Virus record (IMG/VR): IMGVR_UViG_3300036766_001883
Span: 1 to 53,990 of that record
Source of the DNA: a virus
Taxonomy: Duplodnaviria > Caudoviricetes
Reading direction: 5' to 3' (one strand)
DNA length: 53,990 bases
The position numbers were made by a program, and so were the translations under genes. The notes under the pieces are model-generated. The model searched no databases and had not been told where the DNA came from. It saw only the letters and a program-made list of their open reading frames with translations. Numbering within the stretch: the stretch's first letter is position 1; each line of letters opens with the position of its first letter. Positions 24,437-51,197 of the stretch are shown piece by piece.

Positions 24437-27400
24437 ATGGCGACGATTGCCTCGAAGGACCGGACGCAGACCTTCACCCTGCGGGTTGGCGAACTCGCCG
24501 AGGTCCTTGACCGGCGCACGCGGGCTGCGAAGACCTTCCGTCTTCCCGACGCGCCCGATGGGCGCCGGCGGTTCCGCATCGGCGCGGGTATCGGGCCCGT
24601 TCACTACCGGGCCGACCCGTTCGATGGCGGCCAGCCGCTCCAGGAAATTGACCTCGACGTCAACTTGACGCCGGGGCAGGACTGGGACGCCGCCTGCGAA
24701 ACCAACGGCTACCAGGCTCGATTCTGGCAGTCCCGCGTCATCGGCGGCCGCACGGTCCGCTACATCGCGGAGTTCCGACGCGCCGGGGAATGGATCGGAA
24801 TGGCGCCCGTCGCATTGGCCTGGGAAAACGATGCCGGCCAACGGCAACTGATCGCAACCCCCCAGGCGGTCGGCGCGCCGGCGATAGACAACGACGCCAA
24901 CACGGTCACCTGGGCGAATGCCTTCGGACCCGGCCTTTCGTGGCGCTACAACCTGCGGCCGGACGAATTCTTCAAGACCGTGATCATCCGGCACCGCAGC
25001 GACCTGCCCGCGCCGACGATTGGAACCCAAGGACTGAGACTGGGCATAGTGGTCGCGGTCGCCTGGGGCGACCTCGGGCCTAGCAACGGGTTCACGGCCG
25101 GCAACGCGGTCGCGGACTATGGCGCGGAGTTCTCGGACCTCGACGCGCCCGATGAGGCGGCGCAGGAGCCCGAACCGTTTTCGATGCGCGACCTGGCGGC
25201 CAGGGATATCTGCTGGCTTCGCCGGCCCCGGGCCTGGGACTCCTCGCGGAGGCAGCAAACCGCGGCAATGGGTTGGAAACTGCTGAGGAAGGCCGGAAGG
25301 GTCTATCTGGTTCTGAGCCTTCCGGCGGCCACACTCAACTCCGCCCAGGTCCAGTATCCGGTCTTCCTCGACACGGCGATCAGCGAGGAGCAAGTTGGGG
25401 CCAGCACCGATGATTGTAGGGTCTTGCCGCCTTGGAGTGAGATCGACCTGGCTGGCTACTATGCCTGGGCAGGGGACTACTCCTCCCTCTACTACGACTA
25501 TGAGTCCGGGTTTCGCTTTACGACGGTTCCGATACCGCAGGGGGTGACGATAGACAGCGCCGACCTGAGCGTTTGTGCAGGCTGGGGAACCGTTGGCATT
25601 CCCCTTACGAAGGTCCGCGGGGAGGCCGCCGACAACCCTGTCACTTTCTCAACCTATGCCGATTTCATCAGCAGGGCACGAACGACCGCAGGGCTTGACT
25701 GGGACTTCAGCGACTGGCCAGCGGATGTCTGGGAAACGAGCCCCGATTTGAAGTCCGTCGTGCAGGAAATCACCAACCGCAGCGGCTGGGCGAGCAATAA
25801 TGCTCTTGTTCTATTTTGGGGTGATGACCAGGGGTCGGGCTACCAGGGCAGCAACTACCAGGCCGTCAAGACGTACGACCTGGAGACCACCACAGCCGCG
25901 AAGTTCAACTGCTCCTACACGGAAAACCCGGCCAAGGCGGTATCCGACACCGGCGCGGGGGCGGACGCGACTCCGTCAATCAAGGCGGCAGTTGCGCGCA
26001 CCGATTCCGGCGCGGGGGCGGACGCGACTCCGTCAATCAAGGCGGCAGTTGCGCGCACCGATTCCGGCGCGGGGGCGGACGCGACTCCGTCAATCAAGGC
26101 GGCAGTTGCGCGCACCGATTCCGGCGCGGGGGCGGACGAGGTCTGGGCGGCGGGGCCGGCTGTAATTACCGAGGACGACATGGGCGCCGGCGCAGATGCG
26201 GTAACGACGACTGTGGTCATCGCCGTGGCGGACGAGGTGGTTGGCCCCGATCATCTGCTTGATATCCTCGCGGGATTGAGTGTCCTTGATAACGGCGTGG
26301 CAGACGACACCCTGGCGGTATCAGCGGGGGTTCCAGTCGAAGACGCCGGCCTCGGAGAGGACGCCACAGGTGTGACGGTCGCAGGCCAAGCGCCATTTGT
26401 CTCCGACATGGCCAGTGGAGCAGAGACGATCTCGATCACCCGAGCCGGGATCGTCGTGATGCCGGTCAGTTGTGAGATAGATTCGGACCTGGAAAACCTG
26501 GCGGACTCGGTACAGTTGGCGATCCTGGAGAAAGACTTGGCGGCGCCACTCGCGCCGGCGGCGCTGAAATGGCTGACGATCAGCGACGGCGATAGCATAC
26601 GCGTGAGGCTCGGCCTGCGCGGACTGGATCTGCTGGACTACGGGGAATTTCGCGTGGATGAGTCTTCGCTCGAGGCGATCGGGTCCCAACTGGCTACGGC
26701 AATCCGAGGGCGGGACAAGGCCGCCCGTCTGATCGAGGAGCGGGCGCGCATCCAGTATGGCCAGGGCGATTATCCAGAGGAGAACCCGGAGATCTTCACC
26801 AACCCGACCGCCCGGGCGGTCGCGCTGCGGATCTGCCAGCGCGTCGGCATGTCCTTGATCTGGGATGCCCCCAACTACCAGTTGGTCTCTTTCACGCTGA
26901 AGCCTGAGGACACGCTGAGCAAGGCACTGGGCGACCTCCTGGGGCCCCTGAGACAGGGGAAGCGCTACCGGGCGGATGCCTGGGCCGAAGGCGACCAGGT
27001 GATCGTGCGCCGGCGGGGGTATGGGCCGATCGAGGGCAGGATTGACTGCCGCCTGGCGCCCCATGTCTCCATTCGCAGGGAGAAGCGGCCGACCGTCGGT
27101 GAGATCAGCGTAAGCGGCGCCGGCTGGGGCAGTGTAGGGGCAATGGAGTGGCCAGCGCTCGAGGCGCAGGCCGGCGAGAGTTCGATTTACGGGGTCAATG
27201 GCCCGCTGCACCGCGAGGTCGTCACCACAACCTCGGAAGGCGTAATTGCGCGAGAAACCGAGGACATCGAGACGACGCAGTGGGGGAACGAGATCCTGAT
27301 ATCCAGGCGGGTCACGACCGAGGAACGAGATCTGCACACCAGCGACCCGAAGTCATCGCGGCGCGAGACGAGTTACGGCCACGACACCCGGGGCAAACTG

Positions 27401-27979
27401 ATCCTGCAAGATGAACTGGTCACCGAAAACGGCAAGCGGACCCGCCACACAATCACACGCTGGACGCCCGGGCTGCATACGGTCTGCCAGACCGTCATCG
27501 AGTGCGGCTACGACTACGACGGGCACGAGTACGTGCTGGAAGGGTATCCGAGGTCTACCGAGACGCCGGGCGAGATGCCGGAGGCGCCCCGGGTGACGGG
27601 CGACCCGGACCACCGGATCGTCGTGACGGAGGAGGGCGTGGAGGGCGGGGCGCTCAGTCCGCACTCGGCCGAGGGCCAGGCGGACGGCGGCGGCACGATG
27701 CCCGTCGTTGTGCACCTGGATGGAGTTCGGGATGCCGCCTTGTGCCAGCAGGTTGCGGATGACCTGGCGGCCGAGAGTGGGAAGTGGCTCTACACGGTAA
27801 CGATGGAGTGGCCGCGGCCATTCCTTTTCCGAAAAGGCGATAAGGTGGCGCTGGGGACCGTGCCGGGAGGGATCGGCGACATCGACGAGGCGACCATCAC
27901 CGGCCTGCATACGCAGTTCGATGAGAGGCAGGCATTGTGGACCCATACGGTCAGGGTCGAATGGTGGGCAGATTCATGA
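24437..27979 (+). CDS. Large multidomain tail tip/hub protein
   Basis: 1180 aa; FRFTTVPIPQGVTIDSA.L carbohydrate-binding-like module, repeat stalk, C-terminal baseplate-hub-like region. Confidence 0.65.
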   Translation: MATIASKDRTQTFTLRVGELAEVLDRRTRAAKTFRLPDAPDGRRRFRIGAGIGPVHYRADPFDGGQPLQEIDLDVNLTPGQDWDAACETNGYQARFWQSRVIGGRTVRYIAEFRRAGEWIGMAPVALAWENDAGQRQLIATPQAVGAPAIDNDANTVTWANAFGPGLSWRYNLRPDEFFKTVIIRHRSDLPAPTIGTQGLRLGIVVAVAWGDLGPSNGFTAGNAVADYGAEFSDLDAPDEAAQEPEPFSMRDLAARDICWLRRPRAWDSSRRQQTAAMGWKLLRKAGRVYLVLSLPAATLNSAQVQYPVFLDTAISEEQVGASTDDCRVLPPWSEIDLAGYYAWAGDYSSLYYDYESGFRFTTVPIPQGVTIDSADLSVCAGWGTVGIPLTKVRGEAADNPVTFSTYADFISRARTTAGLDWDFSDWPADVWETSPDLKSVVQEITNRSGWASNNALVLFWGDDQGSGYQGSNYQAVKTYDLETTTAAKFNCSYTENPAKAVSDTGAGADATPSIKAAVARTDSGAGADATPSIKAAVARTDSGAGADATPSIKAAVARTDSGAGADEVWAAGPAVITEDDMGAGADAVTTTVVIAVADEVVGPDHLLDILAGLSVLDNGVADDTLAVSAGVPVEDAGLGEDATGVTVAGQAPFVSDMASGAETISITRAGIVVMPVSCEIDSDLENLADSVQLAILEKDLAAPLAPAALKWLTISDGDSIRVRLGLRGLDLLDYGEFRVDESSLEAIGSQLATAIRGRDKAARLIEERARIQYGQGDYPEENPEIFTNPTARAVALRICQRVGMSLIWDAPNYQLVSFTLKPEDTLSKALGDLLGPLRQGKRYRADAWAEGDQVIVRRRGYGPIEGRIDCRLAPHVSIRREKRPTVGEISVSGAGWGSVGAMEWPALEAQAGESSIYGVNGPLHREVVTTTSEGVIARETEDIETTQWGNEILISRRVTTEERDLHTSDPKSSRRETSYGHDTRGKLILQDELVTENGKRTRHTITRWTPGLHTVCQTVIECGYDYDGHEYVLEGYPRSTETPGEMPEAPRVTGDPDHRIVVTEEGVEGGALSPHSAEGQADGGGTMPVVVHLDGVRDAALCQQVADDLAAESGKWLYTVTMEWPRPFLFRKGDKVALGTVPGGIGDIDEATITGLHTQFDERQALWTHTVRVEWWADS
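25950..26138 (+). repeat. Perfect 57-bp tandem repeat, about 3.3 copies, in frame
   Basis: Units start at 25950, 26007, 26064, 26121; encode GAGADATPSIKAAVARTDS. Confidence 0.95.
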
Positions 27980-31195: not shown

Positions 31196-31681
31196 GTGAA
31201 AGAAATAAGAACGACGCAGCAGCGCCTGGCCGTGCTCGGCCGGCCCTACATCCTGAAGGCAGACGGGTCGCTGAAGGCCGACCCGGCCTGGGAGAGCGCC
31301 AACCTGGCGACGGTGCTGATGCCGACGGCCCTGCCTCTCTCCTGGGAGCCCAGCGTTCGCACGCAGAAGGTCCGGTGCCATCGCCTGGTGGCGGCACAAC
31401 TGCGCGGAGTCTTCAAGGACCTGAAGGATCGGGATCTCTGGGGCCAGTTCCAGACCTACGGCGGCTCCTACGTGGTGCGCCGAGTGAGGAGCGCGAACGG
31501 AATCAGCGGGCACGCCTTCGGGGCGGCATTCGACTACGACAGCGAGCGCATGCCGCTGCGGAGCAGGGCCCGGTGGCCGCGCCTGGTGGTCGCAGTCTGG
31601 AATGCCCACGGTGCGATATGTGGGCAGGACTTTTCGCGTCCCGACCCGATGCATTTCGAATTCGTGAAGTGCTACGGCTGA
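31196..31681 (+). CDS. Endolysin, M15-family peptidase
   Basis: RBS AGGAGG before GTG; R...SGHAFGAAFD...DPMHFE. Confidence 0.88.
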   Translation: MKEIRTTQQRLAVLGRPYILKADGSLKADPAWESANLATVLMPTALPLSWEPSVRTQKVRCHRLVAAQLRGVFKDLKDRDLWGQFQTYGGSYVVRRVRSANGISGHAFGAAFDYDSERMPLRSRARWPRLVVAVWNAHGAICGQDFSRPDPMHFEFVKCYG

Positions 31682-32163
31682 GGTCCACGGTAACGCCACT
31701 CGGGATGATGCCGATGATTCCAGTCGCGCTTATAGCAGGGATAACATAGGCCCTTTGCCTGGATCTTGCCTACCTTGCCGCACTTGAGGCAAGGCCGGTC
31801 TGCTGCTCTGCGCCATGGCTGCTGCTTATGGTAAGGGCTGTTCTGATGCGCGCTTTCAGTAGAGAAAAGGAGCAGATTCTCCGGCCTGTTGTCGGTCTTT
31901 ATGCCATTGATGTGATGGACGGACTCTCCGGGCCGCAGCGGGCGACCCAGCACGTTCGACATCACGAATCGATGTTCTAGCAGAAACCCATTCCTGCCAG
32001 CATTCGGATGACCTGGTAGGCGCCGCATGATATGTCCAGTATTGAGTATCGTACCAGACCCGTTCGGACGGCGGCGTGGCTTTTGAGAACGGCAACTAAG
32101 GCAGGTGCGGTCGTCGCGGAAATCAAAATGTTGGCGACATCTACGACACTGGCGCTGCGACAT
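31672..32163 (-). CDS. HNH homing endonuclease
   Basis: LEHRFVMSNVLGRPL..ESVHHINGIKTDNRPENL; RBS AAGGGAG. Confidence 0.9.
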   Translation of the reverse strand: MSQRQCRRCRQHFDFRDDRTCLSCRSQKPRRRPNGSGTILNTGHIMRRLPGHPNAGRNGFLLEHRFVMSNVLGRPLRPGESVHHINGIKTDNRPENLLLFSTESAHQNSPYHKQQPWRRAADRPCLKCGKVGKIQAKGLCYPCYKRDWNHRHHPEWRYRGPQP

Positions 32164-32370
32164 TGCACACTCCCTTCTATACGGATGAGCCTATTATAAT
32201 AGATCAACCTTCCAATGCCTACACTGTTTGGAAGCGCTCTCGCTGGGCCGGACTTTATATGCCCCGGTCCGGTGCATTTTGAGTGCGTGAAACTTTTCTG
32301 AAGGGAATCCCGATCCGCGTGGCGAATCACGAACACGCCATGTTGCGAGGCAGCGCGGAAGGAGCTGTCT

Positions 32371-32667
32371 GTGAACATTTTCAAGGTGCTGTTGAACTGG
32401 GGGAAGATAGCCGCAGGACTTGCCTCGGCTATCCCGGTCCTCGAGGAATTCGCCGAGAATGACCACGAGACCGCAGGTGCGATGATGCTCGCATGGGGCG
32501 ATGTCCAGGAGGCCATCCGGGAAGTCAAGGGCCAGGTTCCGGCCGATCTGAAAGAACAGGTGGACCCGCTGCTCGATAAACTCGCGTCCAAGGTGGCAAC
32601 CAAGGTCGCGGAGGGCCTGGACAGATTGATACCGGAGGAAGCGCTGCTCGGCCTTCTGCCGCACTAG
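32371..32667 (+). CDS. Hypothetical protein, lysis region
   Basis: RBS AAGGAG before GTG; amphipathic. Confidence 0.55.
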   Translation: MNIFKVLLNWGKIAAGLASAIPVLEEFAENDHETAGAMMLAWGDVQEAIREVKGQVPADLKEQVDPLLDKLASKVATKVAEGLDRLIPEEALLGLLPH

Positions 32668-32764
32668 GCGGCAGCACAGGCAGCGCCGGGTCAGGCCACG
32701 ATGCCGGCACTCTAACGCAGGATACGCGCTGCAAGCGCAGCAGGGGGCCTCACCTCCCCCCGCA

Positions 32765-32805
32765 CCAGGCCCCGCCTGAGCCAGCAGAGGCGGGGCCTGG
32801 CTTTT
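32765..32805 (+). terminator. Intrinsic terminator ending the late operon
   Basis: CCAGGCCCCGCCT/AGGCGGGGCCTGG 13-bp stem plus CTTTT. Confidence 0.75.
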
Positions 32806-32917
32806 CCAGCCCAGCCGGGCAGGAAGCAGAAACGGCTTTCACCCCAGATGACTGTCCACAAGGGACCCTCGCGCCTGCCATAGCCCAAAATATTCTGCCG
32901 ACACAGCCCGAACCCTC

Positions 32918-32945
32918 TTGACAAGCGGCGAATCCGTGCTATGAT
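32918..32945 (+). promoter_or_regulatory. Sigma70/SigA promoter of the RAMP-like gene
   Basis: TTGACA-N16-TATGAT with extended TG. Confidence 0.75.
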
Positions 32946-32975
32946 ATAGGCAGTTAGGAGCACGGAGGCGGCGAG

Positions 32976-33566
32976 GTGACTATCATCAGGGTCAGGATCG
33001 AAGGCGTGGCACCGCTCATGCAGCGGAGGTTCTCGGCGGGGCCCATCGGACCAGCAGAGACACGCCCAAACCAAGGGGCAGAGGACCCGCTGGCTCAGGC
33101 CGACGCATCCCTTTACCGCGGAGACGATGGGGTGATCTATCAACCGGCGGTCCATATCGAGAGGGCACTGGAGGAGGCCGGCGCACAAATGGGGCTGCCG
33201 ACACGGGGCGCGCTATTTGTGCAACCGGACCGGATCCGGCACGAGGGTCAAAAATATATCGTTGACGCGAGGCCTGTCACCGAGGGCGGCGCCAGGGTGA
33301 TGCGCTACCGGGCGCGGTTCGATGGCTGGGGACTCCACTTCGAGATTGTCCTGCTGAACGGCCGGCTGACGGAGGCTGCCGTGAGGGGGCTCCTGGACCA
33401 TGCAGGGCGCTATGTGGGGATCGGGGAGTACCGGCCTCGCCTCGGGCGGTTCGTGGTCACCGCCTGGGAGATTGCCGGAACAGGCCAACCGCCGGGCGCC
33501 AGCCAACCTGCCGGGTCGGGGCCGGCGGCCCTAGTCCCGGAAAAAATGTCCGCTTGGCCCCCTTGA
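32976..33566 (+). CDS. Stand-alone RAMP/Cas7-like protein
   Basis: N-terminal strand IRVRIEGVAPL, IYQPAVHIERAL, YRARFDGW.L.FEI, Gly-rich loop AGRYVGIGEYRPRLGRF; RBS GGAGG. Confidence 0.75.
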   Translation: MTIIRVRIEGVAPLMQRRFSAGPIGPAETRPNQGAEDPLAQADASLYRGDDGVIYQPAVHIERALEEAGAQMGLPTRGALFVQPDRIRHEGQKYIVDARPVTEGGARVMRYRARFDGWGLHFEIVLLNGRLTEAAVRGLLDHAGRYVGIGEYRPRLGRFVVTAWEIAGTGQPPGASQPAGSGPAALVPEKMSAWPP

Positions 33567-33591
33567 CAAGCGCAGACAATTCTTGTATAGA
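33563..33591 (+). promoter_or_regulatory. Sigma70/SigA promoter
   Basis: TTGACA-N17-TATAGA; shares CTTGACAAGCG with the 32918 promoter. Confidence 0.7.
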
Positions 33592-33627
33592 GGAAGGTCG
33601 AAGCAGCGCTGGGATGGAGATGCCGTG

Positions 33628-33912
33628 ATGAGGAAGCAGCGAGCGGCGAAGCGGGGAAACAAACCGAAGCCCGTCAGGCGCGCCTACATGCGCTCGCAGA
33701 GATGGCGGAAGATCGAGGCCGCCTACGGAAGTCCGCCGACCGACATTGTGCGCGGCCACCTGAGGGAGGGGCTGACTGTGACCGAGTCGGCGGGGAGGAT
33801 CCTGCGGGAGACGCGAATCAGCGTGAATCGCGCGACCCTGTATGCCTGGCTCGCCCAGGAGGCGGAACCGGGCCGGCCGTTGGTGGAGGCAGTCGCCGCA
33901 GCGGCAAAGTGA
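33628..33912 (+). CDS. Small HTH DNA-binding protein (regulator or excisionase candidate)
   Basis: LTVTESAGRI..ISVNRATLYAWL; adjacent to attP. Confidence 0.6.
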   Translation: MRKQRAAKRGNKPKPVRRAYMRSQRWRKIEAAYGSPPTDIVRGHLREGLTVTESAGRILRETRISVNRATLYAWLAQEAEPGRPLVEAVAAAAK

Positions 33913-34041
33913 CGGACGACAGATGGCGCAGGCGGTGACGATAGCGGGCGAGGGACTCGAGCGCAGGCTCGAGGCTGTTCTGTTCTGCCATGCACTCCTG
34001 CAGGCTCATGCGCCGGGCCGGTGGATGACGAACCGCGCACC

Positions 34042-34085
34042 TTGGGACCACGAGGTCGCCGGTTCAAGTCCGGCCGCCCCGACCA
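34042..34085 (+). mobile_element. attP core: 3' half of tRNA-Pro(TGG)
   Basis: TTGGGA-CCACG-AGGTC-GCCGG-TTCAAGT-CCGGC-CGCCCCG-ACCA gives anticodon loop, T arm, acceptor 3' strand and CCA; no 5' half; next to the integrase. Confidence 0.85.
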
Positions 34086-34255
34086 GCCTACTAGACTTCA
34101 GTGCCCCCTCCTTTTGCCGGGAGTCGCTCTCCTGTTACCCCACCGGCCCTCTAACGACCGATCATGCCCTGCCTTGCCCGGCGCATGGAATAGCACCCTT
34201 TGAGGATCGCGGCCAAAAAATCTCTGCGAACCGCGCACCTTGGGGAGGTGCTCAG

Positions 34256-35446
34256 ATGGGGAGTCTGCATTACGTCGTCCACTTCCTGCGCATGGAGCGG
34301 GCAGAGGGTAAAGCTTCATCCACACTTCGCAATCGCCACCGCGCCCTGAAAGCCCTCGATGCCTGGCTGGGATCGCTGGGGCTCACCGATAGCCAAGTCA
34401 GTCGCCTCGACCTGGCGGATTACGTCTGCTGCTTGCGGGAGAGGCATCCGGCGGACCAGGTCAACATTGACATCTCGGCCGCGAGGGTTTACTTCCGCTG
34501 GCTCGCCGAGATGCAGGTCCGCGGGGACAACCCGGCTGCCGCCCTGCGGTTCCTACGCGTGGAGCCGAAGCCGGTTGAGAGCCTGACGACGGAGGAGGTG
34601 CGCAGGTTGCTTTCCTTTGCCCGACGCACGCGGGGCCTGCGCTTTGGCACCGATCGAACTGCGGTGCTTGTAGTCTGCCTGATCGACACCGGCATGCGGC
34701 TGGGCGAAGCGCTGCGCCTGCGGGTCAGCGACCTGGACCTCATCCAGGGGCGACTGCAGGTGACAGCGACGAAGACGGGGAGGACACGGTCGGTACCGCT
34801 GTCGCCCATATTGCGGCGGCTGCTGGTGGCCTATCTGAGGCGCCGGGCGGCGCACTTGCAGCAGCGGAATCTGGCCGACTGCGGAGTACTCTTCATCGGC
34901 GAGCACGGCGGTCCCTGGACGATCGCCAATGCGGAGCGGTCGTGCAAGACGGTAGCCCGGCTCGCCGGCCTGAGGCGGGAGGTGTATCCACACCTGTTCC
35001 GGCACACGTTCGCCACGCAGTTGTTGGCGGGCGGGGCTTCGCTGATCGTGGTCATACTGTGGGGCGGATGGCAGAAGGTAACGACCGTGCAGCGCTATAC
35101 CCACATGTCGCCACAGCAGCAGGCAGACGTACACGCGGCGACCAGCCCGCTCATGCAGGCAAGCCGCCTGCAGTTCCTGATGCCAGAAGACCGAGGAGGT
35201 GATGATAACGACGGCGACCAGAAGCGAGGAGCGGTCAGGGCGCGAGCAGTCGGCGCGGCCCGGCGCGAGGACCGGAGTGCGCTGGTGCTAAGATCGAGTA
35301 AGGAGGCGAAAGCCCGCCGGAGCTGGCAGCCAGGCGGGCCATCGCGCACCCAGATAGGGCGACGGGATTATAGGCCGGGTCCGCTCGGCAGTCAAGCGCA
35401 GATTCGAGATCTATCCGCCGGGAGGCGGAGTAGGAGGACGAGATGA
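34256..35446 (+). CDS. int: Tyrosine recombinase/integrase (XerC/D-like)
   Basis: RBS GGAGGTG; DTGMRLGE (R), TKT (K), HLFRHTFA (HxxR), GGW, RYTH (Y). Confidence 0.92.
   Translation: MGSLHYVVHFLRMERAEGKASSTLRNRHRALKALDAWLGSLGLTDSQVSRLDLADYVCCLRERHPADQVNIDISAARVYFRWLAEMQVRGDNPAAALRFLRVEPKPVESLTTEEVRRLLSFARRTRGLRFGTDRTAVLVVCLIDTGMRLGEALRLRVSDLDLIQGRLQVTATKTGRTRSVPLSPILRRLLVAYLRRRAAHLQQRNLADCGVLFIGEHGGPWTIANAERSCKTVARLAGLRREVYPHLFRHTFATQLLAGGASLIVVILWGGWQKVTTVQRYTHMSPQQQADVHAATSPLMQASRLQFLMPEDRGGDDNDGDQKRGAVRARAVGAARREDRSALVLRSSKEAKARRSWQPGGPSRTQIGRRDYRPGPLGSQAQIRDLSAGRRSRRTR
35305..35395 (-). ncRNA. Putative ~55-nt antisense sRNA with its promoter
   Basis: TTGACT-N17-TATAAT (35395-35367), then GCCCGCC/GGCGGGC hairpin plus TTTC. 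Confidence 0.6.
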
Positions 35447-43053: not shown

Positions 43054-43173
43054 CCGTGACAGAGCGGTGACAATCCGTGACAGAGCGGTGACGAACTGGT
43101 GACAGAAACGGTCTTGCTCCTCGCGCGCGCGCGCGTTGAAGACTCAGACTCAGACTCAGACTCAGACTCAGAC
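43054..43173. repeat. Putative replication origin: GTGAC iterons, (CG)n and (GACTCA)5
   Basis: CCGTGACAGAGCGGTGAC twice plus GGTGACAG, about 10.5-bp phasing; GACTCA x5 at 43141-43170. Confidence 0.65.
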
Positions 43174-43227
43174 AAGGAGGGCCCCCGCCGGCAGGGCGGG
43201 CCCTCCAGGTGAGAGAGGGATGGAAGG

Positions 43228-44094: not shown

Positions 44095-44794
44095 TTGCGA
44101 GCGGTGCGCAGGACCGCGGGGCTTGATCTCGATGGAGCGCGCGGGCCAGCGGCTGCGCGTGGCTTGCCCGCTGCGGCGGGATGCGCTGCTGTGCCGGCTG
44201 GCGCGGCTGGACAGGGACCGCGCACTGCACGAGCGCCGGCGGTGGATGCGGGATGCGGCGATCCCACCGCGGTATCGCGGGGCAGATATCGAGCGCGTGG
44301 CACCGCAGGTGCGCGAGGATGTTCGGGCTTACCTCGACCGCCTTGCCGAGCACACTGGGAAGGGGCACGGCCTGGTGATCACGGGCGATACGGGGGTCGG
44401 AAAGTCCTCGGTCATGGGCCTGGTGGCGGACCGCGCGTGCGAGCTCTCGATGACGTCGGTCCACTGGGCCCACGCGACGGACATCTTCACGGCCGTCTGC
44501 GACCGCGACACGGAGGAGGGCAGGCAGTTATGGACTTGGCGGACCTGCCGCCTGCTGCTGGTGGATGAATTTGCGGGGGCATACATGCACGCCTTTCCGC
44601 TGGGCCGTTTCGAGGCATTCATGGAGGCACGCCACGGGCAGGCTCTCACCACGTGCCTGACGATGAACCTGCTGGTTGAGGATCTCGAGCGCGCCCGGGA
44701 GATCGCCCGGCTGGTGGACCGGTGGGGCCAAACGTGTTACGTGCTCGAGATCCGAGGCCCGTCACAGCGGCAGCCGCTGGAGGGCACACCGTGA
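43973..44794 (+). CDS. DnaC/IstB-like AAA+ helicase loader
   Basis: CERC..C, IPPRY, GDTGVGKS, LLLVDE. Confidence 0.85.
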   Translation: MSHMEPIGPEVKKQHADIVRRTQATREILDEWSCDAEWKPDCERCAGPRGLISMERAGQRLRVACPLRRDALLCRLARLDRDRALHERRRWMRDAAIPPRYRGADIERVAPQVREDVRAYLDRLAEHTGKGHGLVITGDTGVGKSSVMGLVADRACELSMTSVHWAHATDIFTAVCDRDTEEGRQLWTWRTCRLLLVDEFAGAYMHAFPLGRFEAFMEARHGQALTTCLTMNLLVEDLERAREIARLVDRWGQTCYVLEIRGPSQRQPLEGTP

Positions 44795-44799
44795 GAGAT

Positions 44800-44839
44800 C
44801 GCATGGCAACGCAGGGCATGGCATGGCGAGGCTTGGAAG
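44800..44839 (+). repeat. Intergenic 5-nt-periodic GGC-NN tract (8 units)
   Basis: CGCat GGCaa CGCag GGCat GGCat GGCga GGCtt GGAag. Confidence 0.7.
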
Positions 44840-44857: not shown

Positions 44858-45088
44858 ATGCCAACAATGGCCGAGCCGATGCAGATCGCGATCACCGAGG
44901 CAGAGGCGATCGCAGTACTCGAGTGCACGCTCGCCGCGCTGCGAGGGCCGGAGGGCCGGGGGCCGTGCGCCTCACTCGCCAAGCGGTGGGCGGGAACCCT
45001 GGCGAAGATGCTATTGGACCGGGGGGTGATTCCGGCTGCCACTGCGGACGAGTGGCAGCGAGAACTTCTGGGCGGTGGATCCGCATGA
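44858..45088 (+). CDS. Hypothetical protein
   Basis: RBS GGAGG; start 44858 or 44867. Confidence 0.5.
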   Translation: MPTMAEPMQIAITEAEAIAVLECTLAALRGPEGRGPCASLAKRWAGTLAKMLLDRGVIPAATADEWQRELLGGGSA

Positions 45089-50341: not shown

Positions 50342-51197
50342 CGAGTGGAACGCGAACACGTTCGATCCCGAGAATTACCCCAAGCTGGTCGAGAGCATCC
50401 GGGACCGCGGCATCATGGAGCCTCTCAAGGTCATGCCGGACCCCTGCTGTGCGATCGCCAGGGGCGGCGATGGAAATACCGAGGATCTCCGCTACCTGCT
50501 GATTGACGGGTATCACCGCTGGCTCGCCGCCGAGGAGCTGGGGCTGATGGAACTGCCTTGCGAGGTCTGGGAGATCAGCCTCGAGGAAGCGAAGATCCGC
50601 GGCCTTCAGTTGAACTACCTTCGCGGCCAGCCGGTGCCGCAGCGGCTGGCCGCCCTGCTGCACGATCTCAATGCCACGTTCGCGGTCGAGGATCTGGCGA
50701 ACCTATTGCCCTGGTCGGCGGGCGAGATCGAGCAGGCGATAGACCTGTTGCCCTGGTCGGCGGGCGAGATCGAGCAGGCGATAGACCTGCTGGCCTGCGA
50801 TGATGACCGACTCCTCGTCGAATTGCTACGGGAACGCCAGGCGACGGGGACCCTGGCTTCGACGGGATGGGACGACGAGGCGCTGCGCGAGATGATGGGG
50901 CGGCTGGACATGCTCGACGAGGGCTTACCTGCCGATCCGGGACCGGGCGCCGTGCCGGCGCAGGCGGTGACGCACCCGGGCGACGTGTGGATGATGGGCC
51001 GCCACCGCGTCGCTGCCGCGACGGGCAAGAGGCGGGCCGAGCTAACCGAGGCTGTTCGCATCTTCTCATCCGAGCACAGTCTACCCGAGGAGCAGGTGCG
51101 GATACGCGCTGTGGTGCTCATTGATCAGCGGCAGCGCAAGCGCGATGGCTTTCTATGGGTGCCACCCAAGCCGACGCGCTACGCCTCCTTGCGTTGA
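50310..51197 (+). CDS. ParB/Srx-domain protein; N-terminal part of an interrupted ParB-methylase fusion
   Basis: IRPNEWNAN, LVESIR..G...PL, LIDGYHRW; ends with PGDVWMMGRHR followed by unrelated sequence. Confidence 0.8.
   Translation: MMIPREQIRPNEWNANTFDPENYPKLVESIRDRGIMEPLKVMPDPCCAIARGGDGNTEDLRYLLIDGYHRWLAAEELGLMELPCEVWEISLEEAKIRGLQLNYLRGQPVPQRLAALLHDLNATFAVEDLANLLPWSAGEIEQAIDLLPWSAGEIEQAIDLLACDDDRLLVELLRERQATGTLASTGWDDEALREMMGRLDMLDEGLPADPGPGAVPAQAVTHPGDVWMMGRHRVAAATGKRRAELTEAVRIFSSEHSLPEEQVRIRAVVLIDQRQRKRDGFLWVPPKPTRYASLR
50706..50789 (+). repeat. Perfect 42-bp tandem duplication, in frame
   Basis: LPWSAGEIEQAIDL encoded twice. Confidence 0.9.

What the first reader, a model, noticed from the sequence alone, without database searches (positions are those of the whole stretch)
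32918..33566. Solitary Cas7/RAMP-like gene with its own promoter and no CRISPR array: candidate phage RNA-guided system
Seen: a 196-aa ORF between the late terminator and attP, with its own TTGACA/TATGAT promoter. It has the RAMP layout: first strand ending in G..PL, a YxP...I..AL helix, and a C-terminal Gly-rich loop GIGEYRPRLGRF. No other cas gene or repeat-spacer array is visible. Known: RAMP/Cas7 proteins polymerise along guide RNAs with fixed nucleotide periodicity. Inference: it binds a non-CRISPR phage RNA, most plausibly the 5-nt-periodic GGC-NN tracts (44800-44839 and weaker ones), to recognise nucleic acid for repression or inter-phage competition. From memory, this resembles recently reported VIPR-type systems (RAMP protein plus GGY/NN RNAs); I could not verify that here.
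Basis: partly seen in the sequence, partly recalled or inferred. Interest (0 to 1): 0.92.

Follow-up and report, generated by a model that had tools for sequence, protein, structure and literature searches.

The report
Phage Vipr gene lacking adjacent guides
This phage gene encodes a relative of the recently described Vipr protein, a CRISPR-like RNA-guided DNA binder, but unlike nearly all its relatives it has no guide-RNA array beside it, only one short candidate guide 11 kb away.

Summary
The ORF is real: 32976-33566, + strand, 196 aa, GTG start. It has a near-consensus promoter (11 of 12 matches plus TG). It lies between a terminator-like hairpin and a tRNA-3'-end attP/integrase module in a complete 53,990-bp phage genome.

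It is a Vipr, the RAMP protein of VIPR systems (bioRxiv 10.64898/2026.04.26.720920):
- A profile of the family hits PDB 36pp "SUSP1 Vipr protein" at E 3e-19. The protein alone hits it at 2.8e-9.
- The AlphaFold model (pLDDT 88.8) has 56 PDB matches at E<=0.001, and every row shown is a CRISPR RAMP effector entry.
- I found no cas gene and no repeat-spacer array.

The guide RNA is the open point. 45 of 48 related loci carry GGYNN tracts within 534 nt of vipr (median 48 nt). The window, L001 and L043 form one 100/100 clade and carry none.

The genome has a single tract, 44805-44839, of 7 units ending in GGA. It is intergenic, on the same strand and 11.2 kb away. Its 5-nt periodicity exceeds 200 of 200 shuffles, and its core is conserved in relative G001.

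No target, tail structure or RNA data were found. The system itself is already published; this clade is an atypical variant.

The parts
32766..32807 (+). Terminator-like hairpin that ends the upstream lysis-side operon: an 11-bp GC stem, a 12-nt loop, then GCTTTTCC.
   Evidence: Read directly from the sequence. RNAalifold predicts the stem in the window, L043 and L001, with compensatory changes. The simple terminator scan did not flag it.
32918..32945 (+). Sigma-70-type promoter of vipr: TTGACA, 16 nt, TATGAT, with a TG extension.
   Evidence: 11 of 12 matches with TG present. Conserved in L001 and L043.
32976..33566 (+). vipr: a 196-aa Vipr-family RAMP protein. The G-loop GIGEYRPRLGRF is at residues 148-159. 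The thumb hairpin is at about residues 95-115. The C-terminal tail, residues 168-196, is modelled with low confidence.
33563..33591 (+). Second promoter-like site: TTGACA, 17 nt, TATAGA. It overlaps the vipr stop codon.
   Evidence: Read by eye and conserved in L001. One search did not flag it, because the -10 hexamer ends in A.
33628..33912 (+). A 94-aa all-helical protein of no known family, found only in this phage and G001. It is a possible accessory (vap-like) or excision-control gene.
   Evidence: (2 proteins in 5.8 billion). No significant family or fold match.
33956..33973 (+). Terminator-like hairpin after the 94-aa gene.
34029..34086 (+). attP core, reading as the 3' end of a tRNA gene (T-arm, acceptor strand, ACCA). 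It is nearly identical in relative G001.
   Evidence: 46 nt identical at 34041-34086; no whole tRNA. The integrase lies at 34277-35446.
44800..44839 (+). Only 5-nt-periodic GGY/NN-type tract in the genome: CGCAT GGCAA CGCAG GGCAT GGCAT GGCGA GGCTT GGAAG. It is the candidate short vrRNA. It lies in the 72-nt spacer between the DnaC-like loader gene (stop codon at 44792-44794) and a 73-aa ORF (ATG at 44867).

Best explanation
The gene encodes a Vipr, the minimal RAMP protein of the phage VIPR systems. I put this at about 0.95.

By homology with SUSP1 Vipr, protomers should polymerise one per 5-nt repeat along an RNA made of GGY/NN units. The GGY bases are buried and the NN pairs are presented to double-stranded DNA with one target base skipped per unit. 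The complex then silences transcription of a competing mobile element.

The gene has its own strong promoter and would sit at one end of the integrated prophage, next to attP. I infer that it is expressed from the lysogen as a competition or defence gene.

This clade has lost the guide array that lies beside vipr in nearly all relatives. The most likely guide is the single 7-8-unit tract at 44800-44839 in the replication module, 11.2 kb away. I put that at about 0.4.

Shown: homology, fold, gene context, absence of an adjacent array, existence and partial conservation of the remote tract.
Inferred: RNA binding, use of that tract as the guide, DNA silencing, and expression in the lysogen.
For: Protein identity:
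- Profile against PDB: 36pp_D 'SUSP1 Vipr protein', E 3e-19, covering profile positions 1-171 of 177.
- The protein alone gives E 2.8e-9, and this is its only PDB match.
- AlphaFold2 model: pLDDT 88.8, pTM 0.79.
- Foldseek: 56 PDB matches at E<=0.001, and every row shown is a CRISPR RAMP effector entry of type III, IV or VII.
- SUSP1 contact residues (paper 10.64898/2026.04.26.720927, section 5): R138, W178 and R179 correspond to R112, Y152 and R153.

Context:
- Complete phage genome.
- Promoter 11 of 12 plus TG.
- Integrase and attP beside the gene.

The family carries guides: 45 of 48 related loci have GGYNN tracts on the vipr strand. Mycobacteriophage Zizzle does too.

The remote tract:
- It is the top 5-nt-periodic stretch of the genome, scoring 47.3. 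The 200 Markov shuffles had mean 35.1, sd 2.3 and maximum 44.1, so 0 of 200 reached it.
- It is the only tract that passes the criterion I used for the relatives.
- It is intergenic and on the vipr strand.
- It ends in a GGR unit. So do 125 of 170 tracts in relatives, against 73 of 1619 inner units.
- 29 of 170 tracts in relatives have 8 or fewer units.
- Its core is kept in G001 with one change, while the flanks are about 71% identical.
- It contains 4 exact GGYNN units, the minimum used by the published callers (paper 1 section 20; paper 3 section 17).
Against: - Distance. The tract is 11.2 kb from vipr. In 45 relatives the nearest tract is at most 534 nt away.
- Weaker statistics by another measure. 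By the GG-only criterion, 11% of shuffled genomes give at least one such tract.
- G001's copy has only 3-4 units, is not significant alone (35.3 against a shuffle maximum of 38.3) and fails a 4-unit GGY pattern.
- The NN bases are conserved between the two phages rather than hypervariable.
- No promoter or terminator lies next to the tract.
- No structured 3' tail was found: fold z-scores are -0.41 and -1.17. The RBS of the next gene starts 14 nt after the tract.
- No convincing target was found under the 1-nt-skip rule.
- Both G1-contact residues of SUSP1 Vipr are replaced: H17 by R17 and D177 by E151. The R/E pair occurs only in this clade, in 5 of 209 aligned rows.
Confidence: 0.5

Rival explanations
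1. Orphan Vipr. The clade lost its guide array and the protein now works with vrRNAs supplied in trans by other elements in the same cell, or is on its way to decay or a new function. On this reading the tract at 44800-44839 is an unrelated cis element, for example a protein-binding repeat or part of the 5' UTR of the next gene.
For: - No tract lies within 11 kb of vipr in the window, and none passing my tract criterion anywhere in complete relative G001.
- The array-less rows form one clade with 100/100 support on a long stem (0.82), nested among array-bearing lineages.
- Solo vrRNAs on elements without vipr, which redirect another element's Vipr, are reported (paper 10.64898/2026.10.15.759431, abstract and section 8). 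Trans use of guides therefore exists.
- The tract's NN bases are conserved rather than variable.
Against: - The gene is intact, and all five invariant family residues and the G-loop are kept.
- The promoter and RBS are conserved in three phages at 59-69% protein identity, which argues for continued selection.
- The tract is the single best 5-nt-periodic stretch in the genome, and this is exactly the motif type a Vipr binds.
Confidence: 0.25
2. Cryptic divergent guide next to the gene. The clade uses a repeat code other than GGY, in line with its R17/E151 pocket. The guide would be encoded in a flanking non-coding stretch, such as the conserved element at 32713-32806 or the spacer at 33913-34028.
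For: - Paper 1, methods section 20, reports loci without recognisable YNNGG repeats whose candidate vrRNAs have NNNGG, YNNNG or NNNNG units.
- The R17/E151 pair is unique to this clade.
- Window 32713-32770 differs from L043 at 3 of 57 aligned positions by my count, while the surrounding DNA is about 73% identical.
- That element follows a more variable 45-nt stretch and folds into conserved hairpins: 44 predicted pairs, 11 with compensatory changes.
Against: - A general 5-nt periodicity scan found nothing above shuffles near vipr in the window, L001 or L043.
- The covariation term for the upstream element is small, -0.87 kcal/mol, and rests on three sequences.
- That element is most simply the 3' UTR and terminator of the lysis-side operon.
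- A one-base-in-five signal is below what my scan can detect, so this rival is weakly tested.
- E at position 151 also occurs in L039 and L042, which have normal GGC tracts.
Confidence: 0.15
3. Not an RNA-guided system at all: a stray Cas7-like or RRM-fold protein with an unrelated role.
For: Pfam and PADLOC give no family. PHROGs gives only phrog_4652, of unknown function.
Against: There is direct sequence homology to a structurally and functionally characterised Vipr. 45 of 48 related loci carry guide tracts.
Confidence: 0.03

Closest known systems
VIPR systems: the Vipr protein plus vrRNAs of Escherichia phage SUSP1 and the P. fulva prophage (bioRxiv 10.64898/2026.04.26.720920, .720927 and 10.64898/2026.10.15.759431)
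   Same: - The protein is homologous (E 3e-19 by profile, 2.8e-9 alone) and of similar size (196 against 202 aa).
- It has the RAMP fold with the G-loop motif G-x-G-[DE]-aromatic-R-P-x-x-G-R-F and the thumb arginine.
- It is phage-encoded with no cas genes or CRISPR array.
- A GGY/NN-type tract is present in the genome.
   Different: - No vrRNA array flanks vipr. The only tract is 11.2 kb away, has 7-8 units with two CGC units, and has no detectable structured tail.
- Both G1-contact residues are replaced (H by R, D by E).
- The neighbouring small gene has no recognisable family.
- The gene sits at the attP-proximal end of a temperate phage.
CRISPR-Cas Cas7-family RAMPs (Csm3, Cmr4, type VII Cas7, Cas7-11, Csf2)
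   Same: Same fold by Foldseek: top match 6s6b_I at E 1.5e-5, TM scores of 0.40-0.57 normalised to the query for all but one listed row. The fold has an RRM core, a glycine-rich loop and a thumb hairpin.
   Different: Sequence identity is only 9-15%. There is no Pfam RAMP match, no other cas genes, no repeat-spacer array, and the context is a phage genome.
Solo vrRNAs of satellites and VIPR-null phages (bioRxiv 10.64898/2026.10.15.759431, section 8)
   Same: A short GGYNN tract standing apart from any vipr gene.
   Different: Here the same genome also carries vipr. The published solo vrRNAs occupy the former vipr-vap1 position or lie on satellites. They have a pseudoknot tail, and most have predicted targets.

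Membership tests
VIPR system (Vipr + vrRNA) | Protein homologous to a characterised Vipr | tested here: met
   36pp_D SUSP1 Vipr at E 3e-19 over profile positions 1-171 of 177; the protein alone at E 2.8e-9.
VIPR system (Vipr + vrRNA) | Minimal RAMP fold: single RRM core, glycine-rich loop, thumb | tested here: met
   pLDDT 88.8; 56 PDB matches at E<=0.001, and all rows shown are CRISPR RAMP effector entries. The G-loop GIGEYRPRLGRF aligns to SUSP1 GVGDWRPRFGRF.
VIPR system (Vipr + vrRNA) | GGY-contact residues of SUSP1 Vipr (H17, D177, R138, W178, R179) | tested here: inconclusive
   R138, W178 and R179 correspond to R112, Y152 and R153, so these are kept. H17 and D177 correspond to R17 and E151, so these are changed. 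Across the family, position 17 is H in 98 rows, N in 57 and R in 6 of 209. Position 151 is D in 175 rows and E in 10.
VIPR system (Vipr + vrRNA) | Non-CRISPR, mostly viral context | tested here: met
   complete virus record; no array; no Cas family.
VIPR system (Vipr + vrRNA) | vrRNA of tandem GGY/NN units flanking vipr | tested here: not met
   The window has no tract within 11 kb of vipr. 45 of 48 relatives have one within 534 nt.
VIPR system (Vipr + vrRNA) | A vrRNA of at least 4 GGYNN units somewhere in the element | tested here: inconclusive
   There is one tract at 44805-44839, with 4 exact units at 44815-44834. Its periodicity exceeds 200 of 200 shuffles. The GG-only criterion is met by chance in 11% of shuffles. 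There are no expression data.
VIPR system (Vipr + vrRNA) | Conserved structured 3' tail after the repeats | tested here: inconclusive
   fold z-scores of -0.41 (window) and -1.17 (G001). No stable conserved hairpin was found.
VIPR system (Vipr + vrRNA) | Accessory vap gene beside vipr | tested here: inconclusive
   The 94-aa neighbour has no Pfam, PHROG or PADLOC family. Its best fold match is Z 5.5, which is in the noise range. The vap families are defined in supplements I could not see.
VIPR system (Vipr + vrRNA) | RNP formation and DNA binding by the 1-nt-skip code | not testable with these tools
   This needs biochemistry. My target scans gave only chance-level matches.
CRISPR-Cas class 1 Cas7 | Encoded with a CRISPR array and other cas genes | tested here: not met
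CRISPR-Cas class 1 Cas7 | Matches a curated RAMP/Cas7 sequence family | tested here: not met
   0 Pfam families at E<=10; 0 PADLOC families.

The most novel reading that the evidence does not exclude
This is a Vipr lineage that gave up its own adjacent guide array while remodelling the pocket that reads the first guanine of each repeat (H to R and D to E, a pair seen only in this clade). Either it reads a repeat code other than GGY/NN, or it is a guide-poor Vipr that is loaded mainly with vrRNAs from other elements in the cell. The second case would be the mirror image of the published solo-vrRNA 'guns for hire' arrangement.
Probability: 0.3. Interest if true: 0.75.

Novelty: new variant of a known kind. 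Interest (0 to 1): 0.5.

Why it matters
VIPR systems were first reported in 2026 and are proposed as ancestors of CRISPR RAMPs and as programmable DNA binders.

A clade that keeps an intact, well-promoted vipr but has no array beside it bears on three open questions:
- How guides and proteins are matched.
- Whether the GGY scaffold code can change.
- Whether Vipr proteins can be armed in trans.

There is also a practical point for annotation. These genes are labelled 'hypothetical' in deposited phage genomes, and guide tracts can be mis-called as small ORFs. One example is Zizzle gp53.

Tried and rejected
Family libraries. Pfam and PADLOC gave nothing for the protein. PHROGs gave only an unknown-function family.

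Tract counts. A GG-only period-5 count did not separate the tract from shuffles. An information-based score did.

[quoted passage not shown] - It gave 115 exact matches in viral contigs. All lie in low-GC DNA (median 33% GC, highest 56%), so they are chance matches.
- The 5-unit core gave 3 one-mismatch matches in the window, a count reached or exceeded in 6 of 100 shuffles.
- Identity scans of the window and G001 against shuffled-guide nulls gave two marginal results among 8 tests: 11 of 12 at window 15364 (null fraction 0.02) and 10 of 10 at G001 48486 (0.005). They lie at non-corresponding places. I treat them as noise.

RNA data. The look-up of sequencing runs listed no RNA holder.

Tail structure. 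Folding the tract with its 3' flank gave no significant structure.

Rfam. An E-value scan of 32600-34400 gave only a chance mir-370 match on the terminator.

The 94-aa neighbour. Foldseek found nothing at E<=0.001. VIA-align's best match was Z 5.5, within the noise range for helical proteins.

Binding test. Complex prediction for Vipr with the 94-aa protein returned 'no answer', score 0.00. That is neither for nor against binding.

Hexamer tract. I considered the (AGACTC)x5.7 tract at 43140-43173 as a 6-nt-periodic guide. I rejected it because it lies next to GTGACA iterons, G001 has the same pairing of repeats, and the units are identical, so they carry no code.

Supplements. The supplementary tables of the three VIPR preprints were closed. 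They may already list or type this clade.
Full report
THE OBSERVATION

The window is a complete virus record of 53,990 bp with direct terminal repeats. The ORF 32976..33566 (+) encodes 196 aa from a GTG start. GGAGG lies eight bases upstream of the start codon. L043 has ATG at the aligned position.

A sigma-70-type promoter, TTGACA-16 nt-TATGAT with a TG extension, lies at 32918-32945. It scores 11 of 12. The scan found 3 promoter-like sites in 32300-34400 against 0.2 expected from shuffles. The promoter is conserved in both close relatives.

Upstream of the gene:
- an M15-peptidase endolysin;
- a 98-aa ORF with no family;
- an 11-bp GC hairpin followed by GCTTTTCC at 32766-32807. I read it by eye, and RNAalifold predicts it. 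The simple scan did not flag it.

Downstream of the gene:
- a second promoter-like site overlapping the stop codon (33563-33591, read by eye);
- a 94-aa ORF (33628-33912);
- a terminator-like hairpin (33956-33973);
- a 46-nt block at 34041-34086 that is identical in relative L001 and reads as a tRNA 3' end with ACCA;
- a tyrosine integrase (PF00589, E 7.9e-29).

No CRISPR array or cas gene was found. Rfam gave 0 matches. TRF and the repeat finder gave only in-gene tandem repeats. PADLOC gave no Cas family in the protein or in 10 neighbouring ORFs.

WHAT THE PROTEIN IS

Pfam gives nothing at E<=10. PHROGs gives phrog_4652, of unknown function, at E 3.1e-21.

Homologue searches:
- The word-indexed search found 7 homologues among 471 candidates.
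- The exhaustive search found 1,242 representatives at E<=0.001, 199 at <=1e-10 and 2 at <=1e-30.
- tblastn against deposited phages found 154 records, all below 60% identity: Escherichia 77, Mycobacterium 27, Salmonella 17, Shigella 8 and others. All 20 rows shown are annotated as hypothetical.

Link to a characterised Vipr:
- A profile of seven homologues matches one meaningful PDB sequence, 36pp_D 'SUSP1 Vipr protein'. The E-value is 3e-19 over profile positions 1-171 of 177. The only other row, at E 2.1, is noise.
- The protein alone matches the same chain at E 2.8e-9.

Fold:
- An AlphaFold2 model from a 72-row alignment has pLDDT 88.8 and pTM 0.79. The last 29 residues are at 57-68.
- Foldseek against the PDB gives 56 matches at E<=0.001. 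Every row shown is a CRISPR RAMP effector entry: Cmr, Csm, type VII Cas7, Cas7-11/gRAMP or type IV Csf. The top match is 6s6b_I at E 1.5e-5. Sequence identity is 9-15%.

What I read on VIPR:
- bioRxiv 10.64898/2026.04.26.720920: abstract, all of Results, methods sections 18 and 20.
- bioRxiv 10.64898/2026.04.26.720927: abstract, sections 5 and 6.
- bioRxiv 10.64898/2026.10.15.759431: abstract, sections 8 and 17.

By these texts, a Vipr is a minimal RAMP that polymerises one protomer per 5-nt unit on a vrRNA of GGY/NN repeats. The RNP binds double-stranded DNA with one target base skipped per unit and silences transcription of competing phages and satellites.

THE FAMILY CARRIES GUIDES; THIS CLADE DOES NOT CARRY THEM BESIDE THE GENE

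I fetched 48 related loci: 42 viral, 5 metagenomic and 1 genomic. They are not dereplicated. One search found 8 rows that duplicate another row's protein, and L047 and L048 show identical coordinates and tracts.

My criterion for a tract was a period-5 run containing at least 6 units that start with GG, with at least 75% of all units starting with GG and at least 60% reading GGY.

Results in the relatives:
- 45 of 48 loci have at least one tract. All tracts with 10 or more units listed by the two-strand scans lie on the vipr strand.
- The nearest tract lies a median of 48 nt and at most 534 nt from the gene.
- There are 170 tracts of 6-40 units (median 11). 29 have 8 or fewer units.
- The last unit has a purine at its third base in 125 of 170 tracts. 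Inner GG units do so in 73 of 1619.
- Mycobacteriophage Zizzle also has GGCNN tracts just upstream of its homologue gp54. They overlap the annotated CDS gp53.

The three loci without a tract are L012, L001 and L043:
- In L012, vipr lies 133 nt from the end of the fetched stretch, so one side is barely sampled.
- L001 is 67% identical to the window's protein and L043 is 59% identical.

The window behaves like L001 and L043. Nothing passes the criterion within 11 kb of the gene.

L001 belongs to a complete 58,402-bp relative, G001. It is syntenic with the window across the promoter, vipr, the 94-aa gene, attP and the integrase at 73% DNA identity.

In a maximum-likelihood tree of 48 rows, the window's protein, L001 and P0004 (identical to L043) form a clade with 100/100 support on a long stem (0.82). 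The clade is nested among array-bearing lineages. The tree is midpoint-rooted for drawing only. The 10 P-rows outside this clade have no DNA context, so their array status is unknown. The simplest reading is loss or relocation of the adjacent array on that stem.

RESIDUES THAT READ THE REPEAT

Paper 2, section 5, names the SUSP1 contacts: H17 and D177 for G1; R138 and W178 for G2; E71, M72, R179 and C173 for Y3.

From the alignments:
- R138, W178 and R179 correspond to R112, Y152 and R153, so these are kept.
- H17 and D177 correspond to R17 and E151, so these are changed.

Across 209 aligned rows, which include duplicates and split hits, position 17 is H in 98, N in 57 and R in 6. Position 151 is D in 175 and E in 10. 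The R/E pair occurs in 5 rows, all from this clade.

E151 alone is compatible with GGC tracts, because L039 and L042 have both. Arginine and glutamate could still read a guanine. I therefore treat this as a lead, not as evidence of a changed code.

THE ONE TRACT IN THE GENOME

A general information score for 5-nt periodicity puts 44798-44837 first in the genome at 47.3. The 200 first-order Markov shuffles had mean 35.1, sd 2.3 and maximum 44.1, so 0 of 200 reached it.

Under the criterion used for the relatives, it is the only tract on either strand: 44805-44839, GGCAA CGCAG GGCAT GGCAT GGCGA GGCTT GGAAG. By that weaker criterion, 11% of 200 shuffled genomes give at least one tract.

It contains 4 exact GGYNN units at 44815-44834. 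That is the minimum used by the published callers.

Position and conservation:
- It lies in the 72-nt spacer between a DnaC-like helicase-loader gene (phrog_50, E 6.4e-15; stop codon at 44792-44794) and a 73-aa ORF (ATG at 44867). It is on the vipr strand.
- It ends in a GGR unit, like most tracts in relatives.
- In G001 the homologous spot keeps the core with one change, while the aligned region overall is 71% identical.
- G001's copy has only 3-4 units. It is not significant alone (35.3 against a shuffle mean of 33.0 and maximum of 38.3). G001 has no 4-unit GGY run anywhere.

Points against the tract being a guide:
- the 11.2-kb distance from vipr;
- no flanking promoter or terminator;
- no significant fold of the tract with its 3' flank;
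- an RBS 14 nt after the tract;
- NN bases that are conserved rather than variable;
- no target found.

MECHANISM AND ODDS

That the gene is a Vipr: about 0.95.

That it acts as an RNA-guided DNA binder in conflicts between mobile elements is inferred from homology, and from its moron-like position with its own promoter at the attP-proximal end of the prophage.

For the RNA partner:
- the remote tract, about 0.4;
- no guide of its own, with guides supplied in trans, or decay of the system, about 0.25;
- a cryptic non-GGY guide in the flanks, about 0.15. One candidate is the element at 32713-32770, which differs from L043 at 3 of 57 positions and folds into conserved hairpins. My scans could not detect a one-base-in-five signal, so this option is weakly tested;
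- the remainder is undetermined.

The 94-aa neighbour occurs only in this phage and G001. It is all-helical (pLDDT 81) and has no family or fold match. Whether it is a vap-type accessory protein is open.

NOVELTY

What is unusual is the clade's architecture:
- an intact, well-promoted vipr;
- no flanking array;
- at most one short remote tract;
- a clade-specific pair of substitutions in the G1 pocket.

In the sections I read, paper 1 mentions loci without recognisable YNNGG repeats and systems with a single vrRNA. Paper 3 describes solo vrRNAs without vipr. I did not see a Vipr clade with only a remote guide described.

One search found 6 papers holding 'vrRNA', of which 4 were listed. The supplements were closed and may hold this clade.

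Noticed in passing
window 43056-43210: Four to five 11-nt GTGACA-type repeats (43056-43106) are followed by a perfect (AGACTC)x5.7 tract (43140-43173) and a GC-rich hairpin. They lie just upstream of a 288-aa ORF of no family and the DnaC-like loader gene. G001 has the same pairing of repeats: GTGACAGCCTG x2.6 and AGACTT x2.7. This looks like a replication origin or operator array.
   Followed up: partly
window 32713-32770: A non-coding element after the 98-aa ORF differs from L043 at only 3 of 57 aligned positions, while the neighbouring DNA is about 73% identical. It folds into small conserved hairpins ahead of the terminator. Its role is unknown.
   Followed up: partly
window 34027-34046 and 34226-34247: Two direct copies of an 18-base repeat beginning CGAACCGCGC lie one on each side of the tRNA-like attP core. 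Both are conserved in L001. They may be integrase arm-type sites.
   Followed up: no
window 25944-26138: A perfect 57-nt tandem repeat of 3.3 copies lies inside the 1180-aa ORF 24437..27979.
   Followed up: no
L169 2114-2210 (Mycobacterium phage Zizzle, MZ274306.1): Runs of 6 and 10 exact GGCNN units lie just upstream of the Vipr homologue gp54. They overlap the annotated 'hypothetical protein' gp53, which is therefore probably a guide RNA region rather than a gene.
   Followed up: partly
window 31672-32163 (- strand): A 163-aa ORF on the opposite strand lies between the endolysin and the 98-aa ORF. Its translation shows an HNH-like H-N-H pattern. It was not run against any family library.
   Followed up: no
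window 50701-50784: A 42-nt unit is duplicated in tandem at 98% identity.
   Followed up: no
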